Assembly (NCBI RefSeq): GCF_009914755.1
Contig: NC_060932.1
DNA length: 64,000 nt
Origin: the human T2T-CHM13v2.0 reference genome, Homo sapiens
Strand: one strand, 5' to 3'
Shown here one piece after another: positions 52,500 to 63,285 of the stretch. The notes under the pieces are model-generated. The model worked only from the letters and a program-made list of their open reading frames with translations, made no database searches and was not told the origin of the DNA. The translations under genes and the position numbers were made by a program. How positions within the stretch are numbered: the stretch's first letter is position 1; the number at the start of each line of letters is the position of its first letter.

Positions 52500-52732
52500 G
52501 CAGGAAAGTTAAAGGGGGCAGCGCGGCCGCGGGGAGCTCGAGTCCCGGGTGACTGCTGGAGGGAGGAGGTGACCGCGCAGCTCTCGTGCACGGACGGACT
52601 TCGCCGCCCGCGGGGGGCGCGAACCCGAGCCCGGGCCCAGCTCCTGCCGTCACGGCAGCTGTCCCTGTTCCCCCAGGGCGTATGCTGCCGCGGGCTGGCG
52701 CGTCTGCCCTCGGGACTTATGAGCTGAACCCG
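52500..52732 (+). other. PPP1R3B: Predicted alternative non-coding first exon 1a of PPP1R3B (5' end approximate)
   Basis: Directly downstream of the E-box/CCAAT cluster. Donor CCG|GTACGT (GT at 52733-52734). I recall two PPP1R3B 5'UTR variants, but this exact donor is inferred. Confidence 0.55.
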
Positions 52733-53399
52733 GTACGTAGCTCCCCAAGTCTCGAGTCCGAGGGAAGGGCTGGGGACAACAAGGCGAGGGCGTGCAGCGG
52801 GGACCTCTTTGGGTTCCTGTCACCTACATTTTCACCGTGCGACTTGCACTGGCACACCGGGGCTGGAACACTCTAGGTAGCTGGCCCCAGGGAGCTGTTG
52901 CTTCAGCGTGGAGAGGGCGATCCAGGGACCGCAGCTGGGAAGCGCCTCCCGGGCCCACGTGCTCCACCGCGCTGCTGGGCCCGGCTGCGACCGTGACCCG
53001 GGAGCTGCGGCTGCGGCGGCTGATCCCTTTACCACCTGTTGTTCTGGCTTCGAAACTAGCACAAGTTCCCAGCCCCGGGTCCCGAGAGGTCTGGAGACTT
53101 CTCCAAAGTTGGGTAGTGGGGTTTGGAGCTTAAGGACAAGCCGCTTCGTCTCTCTCCGGGCCTTATTTTCCCTATAAAACGCGAGGAAATACACTTGGTA
53201 GGCTCTCAGGCCACCGAGGGCGACGGGACCTAGCACGATCCCCGTCCCGGGCTGGCGGAGGCCAGGCGGCCGCGCGGGGGTGCTGGTGTCGCGCTGCTTG
53301 CTCCGGCCGGGGTTGCCCCTTTGCCGGCCCCGCCCGGGTGCGATAACGGGCTCCTCCTCCTCGTCGTCTTCCTCCCACCGCCGACATCTCCGGGAACCC

Positions 53400-53516
53400 A
53401 GCCCAGGCCCTGCCTCCCGGACACACCGACGCTCACGTAGTCGCGCTTGCCACAACCCTGCGGGCTCTCCGATGCGGCGAGCGAGCTGGGGAGGGGGCTT
53501 CTCCGCGGCCCAAAAG
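53400..53516 (+). other. PPP1R3B: Predicted non-coding first exon 1b of PPP1R3B (5' end approximate)
   Basis: Inside the CpG island, downstream of a GC box (ccccgccc ~53327-53335). Ends at donor AAG|GTGGGT (GT at 53517-53518). Confidence 0.75.
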
Positions 53517-54541
53517 GTGGGTGCGGCGCGAGGCCAAGGAGGCTTGTAGGGAGGTTGGGGGCGGAGTGCAGCCCTGGTCAAACTGGACGGAGGGGACAGA
53601 GTCGGAGAGTAACTTGTGGGATCCTCCAGCCTGGAGAGCACTGGCCTGCTCCTGCGTCTCTTTGGAATCCAGAAAAAGGGGTGTGGAAGGCACAGTAGCT
53701 GCAAAAGAGGGAGTGGGGGCCGGTAATGACTTACTGGAAGATTTGGGGCCTGTCAGAGCACTGTTTTCTGAAAAAGAGGAGAAAACAGAGGAAAGACTGG
53801 ACTTGGGAACTTGGAGACTTGGAAGGTGTTGGAACCTGTGGTCTGAGTGGCGGGGGCCTGCCTGGGAGACCCAGGGTGCAGCAGAAGAGACAATTAGAGC
53901 TTTGGTCTGGGAGGAAGAGGAGGAGAGGAGGAAATGTTTCCTTGGGCAGAGTTGTCCAGGAGCCAAAACTAAAGTGAAGACAGCTGGAGGACTTACACAA
54001 AAGTACAGTTGAGGTATTTAGGAAAAAAAGTTAGTGGGAAGAGAAGCGGCACCAGGGGTGGGTCGCAACATACAATGTCAGGGCCAGCAGGGACCTTGGA
54101 GGGGACCTCAAGCCCAGAGCAGCTGAGTGACTCGCTCAAGTAGCAAAGCAAGGTGCGGGCATTCTTAGCCTAGTACTCTGTTTTCCCTCGTACGTTTTTA
54201 GACGGCAGGGGCTGTGTCATTTGAACTTGCCTCTTTCCTAGAATATGCAACTGTATTCACAAATGTCAGTCTCCAAGATGCTTTGGATGATGGGGACAGG
54301 ATCAAGGGGTACAAGGAGCCTTTAAGGCTGTGAATAGGCCCCCATGGTCTGAGTACAAAGGGGAAAGACATGCACTCTCTTCATGCTGGATCAGTGAAAC
54401 CTTTTGGAAGGGAACACAGAATTGTTGGAGGGAGGTAGATGGCCATGTCTTTAAAAATGAAAATTATAACCTGGTTGTGAATGTTTACTGAATGCAGTTC
54501 GGCAGCTTTCAGTGTTCCTGGTGGGTTGCTTGTGCATCTGA

Positions 54542-55173
54542 TTTTTTTGTTTGTTTGGTTTTGTTTGTTTGTTTTGAGACGGAGTGTCGCTCTGTCGCCC
54601 AGGCTGGAGTGCAGTGGCGCCATCTCTGGCTCATTGTAAGCTCCGCCTCCCGGGTTCACGCCATTCTCCTGCCTCGGCCTCCTGAGTAGCTGGGACTACA
54701 GGCGCCCGCCACCACGCCCAGCTAATTTTTATTTGTATTTTTAGTAGAGACGGGGTTTCACCGTGTTAGCCAGGATGGTGTCGATCTCCTGACCTCGTGA
54801 TCTGCCCGCCTCGGCCTCCCAAAGTGCTGGGATTACAGGCGTGAGCCACCACGCCCGGCCTTTTTTTGCCTTTTTTTTTTTTTTTTGAGACGTAGTTTCG
54901 CTCTGTCGCCCAGGCTGGACTGCAGTGGCGCCATCTCGGCTCACTGCAAGCTCCGCCTCCCGGGTTCGCGCCATTCTCCTGCCTCGGCCTCCTGAGTAGC
55001 TGGGACTACAGGCGCCCGCCGCCACGCCCGGCTAATTTTTTTTTTTTGTATTTTTAGTAGAGACGGGGTTTCACCGTGTTCGCCAGGATGGTCTCGATCT
55101 CCTGATCTCGTGATCCGCCCGCCTCGGCCTCCCAAAGTGCTGGGATTACAGGCGTGAGCCACCACGCCCGGCC
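54542..55173 (-). mobile_element. Two tandem AluY copies in PPP1R3B intron 1 (54542-54860, 54871-55173)
   Basis: Antisense, CpG-rich dimers 10 bp apart. Confidence 0.93.
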
Positions 55174-61685: not shown

Positions 61686-62376
61686 AGAGGCAGAGAGGCT
61701 CACACCTGTAATCCTAGCACCTTGGGAGGTCAAGGCAGGAGGATGGATTGAGCCAGGAGTGTGAGACCAGCCTGGGCAACATAGCGAGTCCTGTCTCTAC
61801 AAAAATTTTTTAAAATTAGCCAAGCATGGTGACTTGCGCCTGTGGTCCCACTTTCTTGGGAGGCTGAGGTGGGAGGATCATTTGAGCCTGGGAGGTCGAG
61901 GCTGCAGTGAGCTGTGCTCACGCCACTGCGCTCCAGCCTGGGCACAGAGCAACACCCTATCTCTAAAAATACGTAAATAAATAGTGTCCCTCAGGACAGC
62001 TATCTGTGGAAGACACCCTTTTAGTCAAATAGATTTGGGAAATTTTAAAACAGTATATATGCCCTTTTGATTATCCTCTGTGGCACATTTGCCAACGGAA
62101 GGCCCCAAGAAATGCTGACCAAAAAACCTGTGCATTTAGTTTTAAAACTAGTGGGTTTCATACTCTTTTGTTTGTTTTAACCTTGAAGCACCCCCCACCC
62201 CCCACCGCATCTCGTCCCCCCACAACATAATCTTCTCTCAAACGCATGTTGTGCTGGACCACACCAGAGTTAATCCTGACCTGTAGCCAGGTGGGCATAG
62301 ATAAAAGGAAATATTGTTTGCCAGTCCCTGCTGGAATGATGCCTTTACACATCTGTCTGATCTGATTGCTCCACTG

Positions 62377-62410
62377 TTTTCTTTCTTCTCTTCCCTTTCC
62401 ACGGTTCTAG
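62377..62410 (+). other. PPP1R3B: 3' splice acceptor of PPP1R3B intron 1 (exon 2 starts at 62411, 17 nt before the ATG)
   Basis: Pyrimidine tract 62377-62400, no AG for ~85 nt upstream, first AG at 62409-62410 (ttctag|cctg). Confidence 0.85.
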
Positions 62411-62427
62411 CCTGTTCATCTAGCCCC

Positions 62428-63285
62428 ATGATGGCTGTGGACATCGAGTACAGATACAACTGCATGGCTCCTTCCTTGCGCCAAGAGAGGTTTGCCTTTA
62501 AGATCTCACCAAAGCCCAGCAAACCACTGAGGCCTTGTATTCAGCTGAGCAGCAAGAATGAAGCCAGTGGAATGGTGGCCCCGGCTGTCCAGGAGAAGAA
62601 GGTGAAAAAGCGGGTGTCCTTCGCAGACAACCAGGGGCTGGCCCTGACAATGGTCAAAGTGTTCTCGGAATTCGATGACCCGCTAGATATGCCATTCAAC
62701 ATCACCGAGCTCCTAGACAACATTGTGAGCTTGACGACAGCAGAGAGCGAGAGCTTTGTTCTGGATTTTTCCCAGCCCTCTGCAGATTACTTAGACTTTA
62801 GAAATCGACTTCAGGCCGACCACGTCTGCCTTGAGAACTGTGTGCTCAAGGACAAGGCCATTGCAGGCACTGTGAAGGTTCAGAACCTCGCATTTGAGAA
62901 GACCGTGAAAATAAGGATGACGTTCGACACCTGGAAGAGCTACACAGACTTTCCTTGTCAGTACGTGAAGGACACTTATGCCGGTTCAGACAGGGACACG
63001 TTCTCCTTCGACATCAGCTTGCCCGAGAAGATTCAGTCTTATGAAAGAATGGAGTTTGCTGTGTACTACGAGTGCAATGGACAGACGTACTGGGACAGCA
63101 ACAGAGGCAAGAACTATAGGATCATCCGGGCTGAGTTAAAATCTACCCAGGGAATGACCAAGCCCCACAGTGGACCGGATTTGGGAATATCCTTTGACCA
63201 GTTCGGAAGCCCTCGGTGTTCCTATGGTCTGTTTCCAGAGTGGCCAAGTTACTTAGGATATGAAAAGCTAGGGCCCTACTACTAG
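62428..63285 (+). CDS. PPP1R3B: Protein phosphatase 1 regulatory subunit 3B (GL, hepatic glycogen-targeting subunit), 285 aa, single coding exon
   Basis: ORF MMAVDIEYRY...LGYEKLGPYY. RVxF PP1-docking motif RVSF at 62611-62622. CBM21 glycogen-binding signatures VKVQNLAFEKTV and WDSNRGKNY. C-terminal phosphorylase-a-binding tail PEWPSYLGYEKLGPYY. ATG at 62428, TAG at 63283-63285. Confidence 0.98.
   Translation: MMAVDIEYRYNCMAPSLRQERFAFKISPKPSKPLRPCIQLSSKNEASGMVAPAVQEKKVKKRVSFADNQGLALTMVKVFSEFDDPLDMPFNITELLDNIVSLTTAESESFVLDFSQPSADYLDFRNRLQADHVCLENCVLKDKAIAGTVKVQNLAFEKTVKIRMTFDTWKSYTDFPCQYVKDTYAGSDRDTFSFDISLPEKIQSYERMEFAVYYECNGQTYWDSNRGKNYRIIRAELKSTQGMTKPHSGPDLGISFDQFGSPRCSYGLFPEWPSYLGYEKLGPYY

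What the first reader, a model, noticed from the sequence alone, without database searches (positions are those of the whole stretch)
52682..62433. Both alternative first exons encode spliced uORFs that end on one UGA overlapping the tandem AUG-AUG start of PPP1R3B
Seen: in exon 1b, the ATG at 53472 lies exactly 45 nt (15 codons) from the donor at 53516. In exon 1a, the ATG at 52682 lies exactly 51 nt (17 codons) from the donor at 52732. Both splice in phase 0 into exon 2 and read CCT GTT CAT CTA GCC CCA TGA, giving MRRASWGGGFSAAQKPVHLAP* (21 aa) and MLPRAGASALGTYELNPPVHLAP* (23 aa). The TGA (62429-62431) overlaps ATG1 (62428-62430, weak context) and supplies the A of ATG2 (62431-62433, strong context: -3A, +4G). 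These ORFs exist only after splicing, so a genomic ORF scan misses them. Established: overlapping uORFs repress downstream initiation and can confer eIF2-alpha-dependent control, and AUGA/UGAUG stop-start overlaps are the geometry of termination-reinitiation. Inference: GL protein output may be gated translationally whichever promoter is used. Caveat: two phase matches could occur by chance at roughly 1 in 9, and the exon 1a donor is predicted.
Basis: partly seen in the sequence, partly recalled or inferred. Interest (0 to 1): 0.8.

Follow-up and report, generated by a model that had tools for sequence, protein, structure and literature searches.

The report
Known upstream ORF overlapping PPP1R3B start
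Two short upstream reading frames in the leaders of the human glycogen-targeting gene PPP1R3B can end on a stop codon lying on its start codon, but one is already in the public catalogue of translated small ORFs, the other is unverified, and the layout looks like a leftover of a decayed ancestral protein start, not a purpose-built switch.

Summary
The arithmetic holds. uATG 53472 (exon 1b) and uATG 52682 (exon 1a), spliced to 62411, give 21- and 23-codon ORFs. Both end on TGA 62429-62431, inside ATGATG.

The exon-1b ORF is not new. It is GENCODE Ribo-seq ORF c8riboseqorf9, class uoORF, with an identical peptide and matching exon geometry. The table gives it no mass-spectrometry support, negative PhyloCSF and the label 'primatomorpha - young'.

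The exon-1a ORF is absent from that table. It also depends on an unverified 52732>62411 junction.

The shared stop follows from the shared 17-nt exon-2 leader and from ATGATG containing TGA. Each uATG has a 1-in-3 chance of that phase. Both uATGs have weak context (C at -3, C at +4).

Orthologue proteins show that exon 1a is a decayed coding exon. Its second ATG (52719) matches a start motif conserved from fish to mammals, but in this human sequence codon 3 is TGA, and the matching acceptor at 62403 is preceded by AC.

ATG2 is the conserved Met. The ATG1 codon varies between lineages.

Most likely this is an ordinary, leaky, mildly repressive uoORF. No function was tested. Interest is low to moderate.

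The parts
52540..52732 (+). Alternative first exon 1a (193 nt, leader GC 0.72)
   Evidence: Hub annotation; donor GTACGT read; leader composition and folding.
52682..52732 (+). First 17 codons of the predicted 23-codon exon-1a uORF; uATG context gggcgtATGc (weak)
   Evidence: Absent from the Ribo-seq ORF table. Ends on the TGA only if spliced to 62411.
52719..52727 (+). ATG AGC TGA: a two-codon uORF, and the relic of the ancestral vertebrate start codon with a stop at the conserved Cys codon
   Evidence: Read through to 62403, the human sequence matches the first 18 residues of Lynx isoform X2 (P0001) at 16 of 18 positions. The two differences are stop for Cys at position 3 and Ser for Asn at position 12.
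53421..53516 (+). First exon 1b of the selected transcript NM_024607.4 (96 nt)
   Evidence: Hub annotation; donor GTGGGT.
53472..53516 (+). First 15 codons of the 21-codon uoORF (GENCODE c8riboseqorf9); uATG context tctccgATGc (weak), 51 nt from the annotated 5' end
   Evidence: The catalogue row has 45-nt and 21-nt exon parts, and its coordinates imply an intron of 8894 nt, the same as in the window.
53486..53488 (+). CTG in good context (G at -3, G at +4), in frame with the CDS through acceptor 62411; a possible 16-residue N-terminal extension
   Evidence: not followed up.
62401..62402 (+). AC dinucleotide at the position where the ancestral acceptor implied by orthologue proteins would need AG
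   Evidence: context CCAC|GGTTCTAG. In one search all five mammalian extended N-termini used as queries align from 62404.
62403..62427 (+). Exon-2 leader; relic coding sequence of the ancestral long N-terminus
   Evidence: tblastn E-values 7e-13 to 2e-20 from 62404 onward; frame table.
62411..62431 (+). Shared last six codons plus the stop of both uORFs
62421..62423 (+). TAG that would end both uATG frames if the 62403 exon start were used
62428..62433 (+). Tandem ATG-ATG: ATG1 in weak context, ATG2 in strong context and equal to the conserved Met
62429..62431 (+). TGA stop of the uORFs, 18 nt downstream of the only exon junction
62464..62466 (+). In-frame ATG (Met13, context aactgcATGg), 32 nt after the uORF stop; a candidate downstream reinitiation site
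   Evidence: inference only.
62428..63285 (+). PPP1R3B coding sequence (285 codons plus stop)
   Evidence: Hub annotation; translated; 372 homologues at E <= 0.001.

Best explanation
An ordinary, leaky upstream overlapping ORF, whose striking layout is a by-product of history.

Shown:
- The exon-1b mRNA carries a 21-codon ORF that ribosomes translate. It is catalogued as c8riboseqorf9.
- Its stop sits on the main start.

Inferred mechanism:
- The uAUG has C at -3 and C at +4, so most scanning 43S complexes should pass it and start at AUG2, which has strong context and is the conserved Met.
- The minority that start at the uAUG translate across the single exon junction and terminate on UGA.
- With no spacer in which to regain the eIF2 ternary complex, these ribosomes mostly fail to make GL.
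- While terminating, they also physically cover AUG1 and AUG2.
- The net effect would be a modest, largely constitutive damping of GL synthesis.
- EJC-dependent NMD is not expected, because the uORF stop lies downstream of the only junction.

The exon-1a ORF would act the same way, but only if exon 1a really joins 62411.

The convergence on one stop is not designed. It follows from the shared 17-nt exon-2 leader and from ATGATG containing TGA. Exon 1a and the exon-2 leader were once coding: they carried a long N-terminus conserved from fish to mammals. In this human sequence that start is disabled by TGA at codon 3, and there is AC in place of AG before 62403.
For: - Coordinates and start contexts.
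- Catalogue row in Table S1 of PMC10032668: identical 21-residue peptide, uoORF, 0 mass-spectrometry studies, PhyloCSF -93.40 (primates) and -587.01 (mammals), 'primatomorpha - young'.
- That class is the default one: 4,914 of 6,506 young sORFs.
- Phase odds are 1/3 per uATG, and the shuffles agree.
- 36 of the 120 listed orthologue cluster representatives carry the start motif M-x-[CST]-[TAS]-[RS]-[VILFY]-[LFV] ahead of the conserved Met.
- The human read-through matches Lynx at 16 of 18 positions, with the stop at the Cys.
- All five mammalian extended N-termini used as queries align from 62404, and the exon-1a homology includes the stop.
- The residue before the conserved Met varies. In the 68 of 101 anchored representatives that have one, it is T 36, A 13, M 10, R 3, V 2, I 2, N 1 and S 1. 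The other 33 start at the conserved Met.
- No exact TURBS core is present, and the leaders fold no more stably than shuffles (z +0.34 and +0.33).
- Review statement that a 1-nt overlap likely precludes typical permissive reinitiation.
Against: - The uATG and ORF structure of the exon-1b ORF are inferred back to the primatomorpha ancestor. The same paper reports more conserved ATGs in translated young sORFs than in controls (63.3% against 35.8%). Some selection on the uATG is therefore possible.
- The unconditional chance of both exons carrying such an ORF is only about 2%.
- PPP1R3B appears in two translatome lists. Rat Sertoli cells place it among poorly polysome-loaded mRNAs. NM_024607 is 11.47-fold up in chaperone-captured translating mRNA after 5-FU. 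Both hints are weak and non-specific, but they are compatible with translational control.
- The size of the repression is my inference from start context. Nothing was measured.
- Liver and muscle ribosome-profiling data were not available to me.
Confidence: 0.55

Rival explanations
1. No meaningful effect in the tissues that matter. In liver and muscle, transcription starts downstream of 53472, or the weak uAUGs capture too few ribosomes, so GL output is unchanged. The Ribo-seq calls would then come from other cell types and reflect background translation.
For: - Weak context at both uATGs.
- The uATG lies only 51 nt from the annotated 5' end.
- The preprint's own caution that a replicated Ribo-seq signal does not show a biological role.
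- Negative PhyloCSF scores and no peptide evidence.
Against: - The ORF is in the Ribo-seq catalogue on the selected transcript's exon structure.
- Its ATG and ORF structure are inferred as old as primatomorpha.
Confidence: 0.2
2. True termination-reinitiation at UGAUG. Ribosomes finishing the short uORF stay on the mRNA and restart at AUG2 (or step back to AUG1). The uORF then delivers ribosomes instead of removing them, and output depends on the factors that reload initiator tRNA.
For: - The stop-start overlap is exactly the UGAUG/AUGA geometry listed for coupled termination-reinitiation.
- The uORF is short (21 codons).
- Cellular precedents with the same overlap are discussed in the review: the 29-codon uORF of the SLAMF1 long isoform, and mouse embryonic GAD.
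- A near-match to the motif-1 core, with one extra G, lies 48 nt before the stop in the exon-1b leader.
Against: - The exact motif-1 core is absent from all four exon-1/acceptor combinations.
- The review judges that a 1-nt overlap likely precludes typical permissive reinitiation, and it leaves SLAMF1 untested.
- The measured efficiencies it quotes are low: about 10% for influenza B, and 82-fold lower downstream product for CASQ2.
- The overlap is not conserved, because the ATG1 codon varies.
Confidence: 0.1
3. Isoform switch of the C/EBP type. Ribosomes that translated the uORF cannot use AUG1 or AUG2. They resume scanning and restart at the in-frame ATG 62464 (Met13), making a GL protein that lacks 12 N-terminal residues.
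For: - An in-frame ATG lies 32 nt after the uORF stop, with G at +4.
- The uORF is short.
Against: - The spacer is short for regaining the ternary complex (principle quoted).
- The -3 base of this ATG is T.
- No truncated isoform is known to me.
- Nothing was tested.
Confidence: 0.06
4. Stress-responsive bypass. A weak-context inhibitory uoORF is skipped more often when eIF2-alpha is phosphorylated, so GL synthesis is relatively spared or induced under the integrated stress response.
For: - A single weak-context uATG in the exon-1b leader.
- The 5-FU translatome listing is compatible.
- The CHOP/GADD34-type precedent is recalled, not read here.
Against: - No two-uORF ATF4-type layout is present.
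- My searches found no paper linking PPP1R3B to uORFs or ribosome profiling beyond gene lists and reference-list entries.
- The idea is generic and would apply to any weak uoORF.
Confidence: 0.06

Closest known systems
GENCODE Ribo-seq ORF c8riboseqorf9 (PPP1R3B uoORF), as listed in Table S1 of Sandmann et al. 2023, PMC10032668
   Same: It is the same object as the exon-1b ORF. The 21-residue peptide is identical. It has two exon parts of 45 and 21 nt, and its coordinates imply the same 8894-nt intron.
   Different: The catalogue records only existence, class, age and scores. It does not mention the tandem AUGs, the stop-on-start overlap or an exon-1a counterpart. It lies on the minus strand in GRCh38. 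One paper lists hg38 as inverted relative to T2T-CHM13 at 8p23.1, a block that includes PPP1R3B, which explains the plus strand here.
Last uORF of the long SLAMF1 (CD150) mRNA isoform, as described in review PMC5972666
   Same: A short uORF (29 codons there, 21 and 23 here) whose stop overlaps the main AUG by 1 nt as UGAUG.
   Different: [quoted passage not shown] PPP1R3B has one uATG (exon 1b) or two (exon 1a) and no exact core. PPP1R3B has a second AUG upstream of the overlap (AUGAUG). In neither gene has the mechanism been shown.
Calicivirus and influenza B termination-reinitiation (TURBS-dependent)
   Same: Stop and restart codons overlap (UAAUG or AUGA types).
   Different: The viral upstream ORFs are long. 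They need motif 1 (UGGGA core pairing with 18S rRNA helix 26) and motifs 2 and 2*. Here the ORF is short and the core is absent.
C/EBP alpha/beta uORF
   Same: A short uORF that ends too close to the first main AUG for reinitiation there, followed by an in-frame downstream AUG.
   Different: In C/EBP the uORF stops a few nt before the AUG instead of on it, and the truncated isoforms are documented. For PPP1R3B the Met13 product is hypothetical.
ATF4 uORF2 and CHOP uORF
   Same: An inhibitory upstream ORF that overlaps or blocks the main start, with a possible link to eIF2-alpha phosphorylation.
   Different: ATF4 needs a permissive uORF1 upstream and a long overlap. PPP1R3B exon 1b has a single uATG and an overlap of 4 nt with ATG1 (1 nt with ATG2).

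Membership tests
Upstream overlapping ORF (uoORF, GENCODE definition) | Starts in the 5' UTR of an annotated coding mRNA and partly overlaps the CDS in another frame | tested here: met
   Definition read. [quoted passage not shown] The same holds for exon 1a, but only if it is joined to 62411.
Upstream overlapping ORF (uoORF, GENCODE definition) | Ribosome-profiling evidence of translation | tested here: met
   Exon-1b ORF: listed as c8riboseqorf9. Exon-1a ORF: no row in that table (1 occurrence of PPP1R3B in the 5 supplementary files searched), so the feature is not met for that ORF in that catalogue.
Conserved regulatory uORF | uATG, phase and stop position kept across mammals | tested here: inconclusive
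   The published class 'primatomorpha - young' means the ATG and ORF are inferred in the primate-colugo ancestor, while the peptide is not conserved in other mammals. The codon that creates the TGA is variable across vertebrates. No mammalian genome DNA was available to me.
TURBS-dependent termination-reinitiation | Stop and restart codons overlapping or within a few nt | tested here: met
   UGAUG with AUG2 and AUGA with AUG1; formula read.
TURBS-dependent termination-reinitiation | Motif 1 with the UGGGA core upstream of the restart site | tested here: not met
   0 exact matches in the four leader combinations. There is one near-match with an extra G, 48 nt before the stop, in exon 1b.
TURBS-dependent termination-reinitiation | Complementary motifs 2 and 2* forming the presenting structure | not tested
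   I made no specific search. The leaders fold no more stably than shuffles (z +0.34 and +0.33).
ATF4-type delayed reinitiation | A short permissive uORF upstream of a second, inhibitory uORF that overlaps the CDS | tested here: not met
   Exon 1b has one uATG. In exon 1a the two-codon uORF (52719) lies inside, not upstream of, the overlapping ORF that starts at 52682.
C/EBP-type uORF-directed isoform choice | A uORF ending at or next to the first AUG, plus a usable in-frame downstream AUG | tested here: inconclusive
   The sequence layout is present (ATG 62464, Met13). Use of that site was not testable here.

The most novel reading that the evidence does not exclude
Decay of an ancient coding first exon in the human lineage turned both PPP1R3B leaders into carriers of uORFs that stop on the AUG-AUG start. 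Ribosomes terminating there, with Pro in the P site and UGA in the A site, either block AUG1 and AUG2 for following scanners or restart at AUG2 or Met13. GL output or isoform would then be set translationally, by initiation-factor availability, from either promoter. This would be a recently evolved control layer on hepatic glycogen synthesis that rodent models would lack.
Probability: 0.08. Interest if true: 0.6.

Novelty: already known. Interest (0 to 1): 0.27.

Why it matters
PPP1R3B (GL) targets protein phosphatase 1 to liver glycogen, and the locus is a recurrent metabolic GWAS signal (recalled). A translational brake on it would therefore be worth knowing about.

- The brake candidate on the main transcript is already catalogued as a translated uoORF, with no function assigned.
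- It looks weak and lineage-restricted.
- Its eye-catching geometry has a simple explanation.

The more useful by-product is evolutionary. The two first exons probably once gave two protein N-termini. The long one is conserved from ray-finned fish to cat, bat, whale and gopher, but it is disabled in this human sequence. This bears on using non-primate models for GL regulation, and on reading 5' UTR variants in this gene.

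Tried and rejected
- The GENCODE catalogue paper was not held under the DOI or the PMC id I recalled. 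I used its preprint text instead. The preprint defines 'replicated' ORFs but does not contain the word 'norep'. My reading of the ID (no 'norep' tag means called in at least 2 of the 7 studies) therefore rests on recall.
Larger ORF catalogues, peptide-evidence tables and the uORF CRISPR-screen tables may hold data on either ORF that I could not see.
- The literature searches found no paper that discusses a PPP1R3B uORF in its text:
  - PPP1R3B with uORF: 1 paper, a reference-list hit only.
  - PPP1R3B with 'upstream open reading': 2 papers, seen as listing only.
  - PPP1R3B with 'ribosome profiling': 6 papers, one opened.
  - PPP1R3B with 'start codon': 11 papers, two opened and both irrelevant to this question.
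  - The catalogue ID: 0 papers.
- One search was a badly framed search, because min_terms did not force the gene name. It gave one usable hit.
- The Rfam scan of 52000-64000 at E <= 1 gave 36 matches, all lying between 54574 and 61965 in intron 1, and all to SRP-RNA or miRNA-precursor families. I read these as Alu repeats. Nothing matched the exons, and no SECIS element was found in the part of the 3' UTR inside the window.
- I considered reading the TGA at 52725-52727 as selenocysteine, because it replaces a conserved Cys. I rejected this. No SECIS was seen in 63286-64000. With the 62411 acceptor that frame ends at the TAG anyway. The rest of the 3' UTR lies outside the window and was not scanned.
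- Leader folding is not exceptional against mononucleotide shuffles.
- A four-residue match between the turtle N-terminus and the exon-1b uORF start (E 3.2) was dismissed as chance.
- Correction: in my first notebook entry I placed the leader TAG one base too early. It is at 62421-62423.

Full report
**The observation**

I read both first exons and the start of exon 2 and recomputed everything from the window file.
- Exon 1b (53421-53516) ends AAG|GTGGGT. Its only ATG, at 53472, lies 45 nt from the exon end.
- Exon 1a (52540-52732) ends CCG|GTACGT. The ATG at 52682 lies 51 nt from its end.
- Exon 2 of the selected transcript starts after TTCTAG at 62411.
- In phase 0 both ORFs read six more codons and stop on TGA 62429-62431. 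That TGA lies inside ATGATG (ATG1 at 62428, ATG2 at 62431).
- The two peptides are the 21- and 23-residue ones given in the finding.
ATG1 is weak (C at -3, A at +4) and ATG2 is strong (A at -3, G at +4).

**Chance**

The 17-nt leader of exon 2 offers exactly three fates. One phase ends on the TGA. One ends on TAG 62421-62423. One runs into the CDS frame. A uATG that stays open to the exon end therefore has a 1-in-3 chance of ending on the TGA, and two have 1 in 9.

In 5000 dinucleotide-preserving shuffles of each exon, at least one uATG whose ORF ended on that TGA appeared in 18.9% of exon-1a shuffles and 10.0% of exon-1b shuffles. My product of the two is about 2%. For a feature noticed after the fact, this is not strong. 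The shared stop itself needs no explanation beyond the shared exon and the fact that ATG followed by A contains TGA.

**Already catalogued**

Table S1 of Sandmann et al. 2023 (PMC10032668; I searched its five held supplementary files and read the header part of file 1) lists c8riboseqorf9 for PPP1R3B.
- It has the identical 21-residue peptide.
- Its two exon parts are 45 and 21 nt on GRCh38 chr8, minus strand.
- Its biotype is uoORF.
- The coordinates imply an intron of 8894 nt, the same as between 53516 and 62411 here.
- The opposite strand fits a report that hg38 is inverted relative to T2T-CHM13 across the 8p23.1 block that holds PPP1R3B (passage seen).

The row gives 0 mass-spectrometry studies, PhyloCSF -93.40 (primates) and -587.01 (mammals), conservation 'primatomorpha - young' and mode 'unknown'.

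From the passages I read, that label means two things. The peptide is not conserved in non-primate mammals. The ATG and an intact ORF are inferred in the primate-colugo ancestor. It is the commonest class, holding 4,914 of 6,506 young sORFs.

PPP1R3B occurs only once in those files, so the exon-1a ORF is not in that catalogue.

The catalogue preprint (10.1101/2021.06.10.447896, passages) explains that ORFs came from seven studies and that 432 uoORFs (62.8%) were replicated in more than one. That this ID belongs to the replicated set is my recollection of the naming, not something a call showed.

**Exon 1a is a decayed coding exon**

A protein search with the CDS (372 hits at E <= 0.001 among 656 candidates, best 120 listed) returned many orthologue representatives that are longer at the N-terminus.
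- 36 of the 120 carry the motif M-x-[CST]-[TAS]-[RS]-[VILFY]-[LFV] ahead of the conserved Met. They include sturgeon, paddlefish, bowfin, frogs, a caecilian, birds, a gharial, and among mammals bobcat, a bat, a pocket gopher and narwhal (names).
- Lynx rufus isoform X2 (P0001) begins MSCTRVLACSSNPMMAVDIE.
- Reading human exon 1a from ATG 52719 and joining it to 62403 gives the same 18 residues at 16 of 18 positions. The differences are a stop at the Cys (position 3) and Ser for Asn (position 12).
- In tblastn, all five mammalian extended N-termini used as queries align to the window from 62404, upstream of the 62411 acceptor (E from 7e-13 to 2e-20). The narwhal X1 model aligns to 52701-52742, including the stop.
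- The junction implied by these proteins is 52732|62403. The hub table lists an exon start at exactly 62403, but in this assembly the two bases before it are AC, not AG.

I conclude, by inference, that the two first exons once gave two protein N-termini. On this reading the long one is disabled in this human sequence by TGA at codon 3 and by the missing AG.

I could not test when this happened, or whether other human haplotypes differ. The orthologue isoforms are largely computational models, but a motif kept from fish to mammals is hard to explain unless it is coding.

**Consequences for the finding**
- If any transcript does use 62403, both uATG frames end on the TAG, 4 nt before ATG1, instead of on the TGA.
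- ATG2 is the conserved start. Among the 101 of 120 representatives that I could anchor, 33 begin at that Met. In the other 68 the preceding residue is T 36, A 13, M 10, R 3, V 2, I 2, N 1 and S 1. Nineteen representatives could not be anchored and were left out.
- The stop-on-start overlap therefore exists only where that variable codon ends in TG. It is not a conserved vertebrate feature.

**Mechanism**

Shown:
- The exon-1b ORF is translated.
- Its stop sits on the start.
- It lies 18 nt downstream of the only exon junction.

Inferred:
- With weak uAUG context, most scanning complexes leak through to AUG2.
- Those that translate the uORF terminate with no spacer in which to regain the ternary complex.
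- The reinitiation review (PMC5972666; passages and section 16 read) argues that this requirement likely precludes typical permissive reinitiation, even for a 1-nt overlap. Its example is the SLAMF1 long isoform, whose 29-codon uORF overlaps the main AUG as UGAUG.
- The viral stop-start mechanism needs a UGGGA-core motif. None of the four exon-1/acceptor combinations has an exact copy.
- The leaders are GC-rich (0.72 and 0.67), with MFE -100.5 and -41.3 kcal/mol. They are no more stable than shuffles.
- Rfam found nothing in the exons.
- The uORF stop lies after the last junction, so the EJC rule (recalled) predicts no NMD from uORF termination.
- An in-frame ATG at 62464 (Met13), 32 nt after the stop, could receive reinitiating ribosomes. 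This is speculation.
- A review of UTR variants (PMC7617937, passages) supports two general points: uoORF translation removes ribosomes from the CDS, and leaky scanning makes the effect partial.

**Hints of translational control**

Both hints are weak.
- A rat Sertoli-cell polysome preprint names Ppp1r3b among poorly loaded mRNAs (passage).
- A 2010 method paper lists NM_024607 at 11.47-fold in chaperone-captured translating mRNA after 5-FU in HCT116 cells (Table 1 passage).

Neither addresses the uORF.

**Is it in print?**

Full-text searches for PPP1R3B with uORF, 'upstream open reading', 'ribosome profiling' and 'start codon', and for the catalogue ID, found no paper that discusses this uORF. 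The library does not cover most subscription journals, and supplements beyond one paper were not open to me. I therefore claim only that these searches found nothing.

**Verdict**
- The sequence facts are right.
- The exon-1b element is a known, catalogued uoORF of unknown function.
- The exon-1a element is unverified.
- The 'one UGA for both promoters' design is best explained by shared sequence and by decay of an ancestral coding exon.
- The regulatory interpretation remains an untested, generic possibility.

Noticed in passing
window 52719-52732 with 62401-62427: Human exon 1a carries the relic of a start motif conserved from fish to mammals. Codon 3 is TGA where orthologues have Cys, and the matching exon-2 boundary at 62403 is preceded by AC instead of AG. 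In other mammals the two first exons appear to give two protein N-termini; in this human sequence both leave the short protein.
   Followed up: yes
window 62403: The hub table lists an exon start at 62403 in another PPP1R3B transcript, but it has no AG acceptor in this assembly. It may be a variant of this haplotype, a carried-over model or a transcript start. The answer decides which stop the uORFs use.
   Followed up: partly
window 53486-53488: A CTG with G at -3 and G at +4 in exon 1b lies in frame with the CDS through acceptor 62411. It could give a 16-residue non-AUG N-terminal extension.
   Followed up: no
window 62464-62466: An in-frame ATG (Met13) lies 32 nt after the uORF stop and could act as a downstream reinitiation site, giving a protein 12 residues shorter.
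   Followed up: no
window 52652-52654 and 52695-52697: Two near-cognate starts in good context in exon 1a. ACG 52652 is in the frame of the 23-codon uORF and would lengthen it to 33 codons. CTG 52695 is in the frame of the two-codon uORF.
   Followed up: no
window 54574-61965 (intron 1): All 36 Rfam matches at E <= 1 are to SRP-RNA or miRNA-precursor families and lie in intron 1. I read them as Alu repeats.
   Followed up: no
whole window: PPP1R3B is on the plus strand here but on the minus strand in GRCh38. One paper lists hg38 as inverted relative to T2T-CHM13 for the 8p23.1 block that contains the gene.
   Followed up: partly
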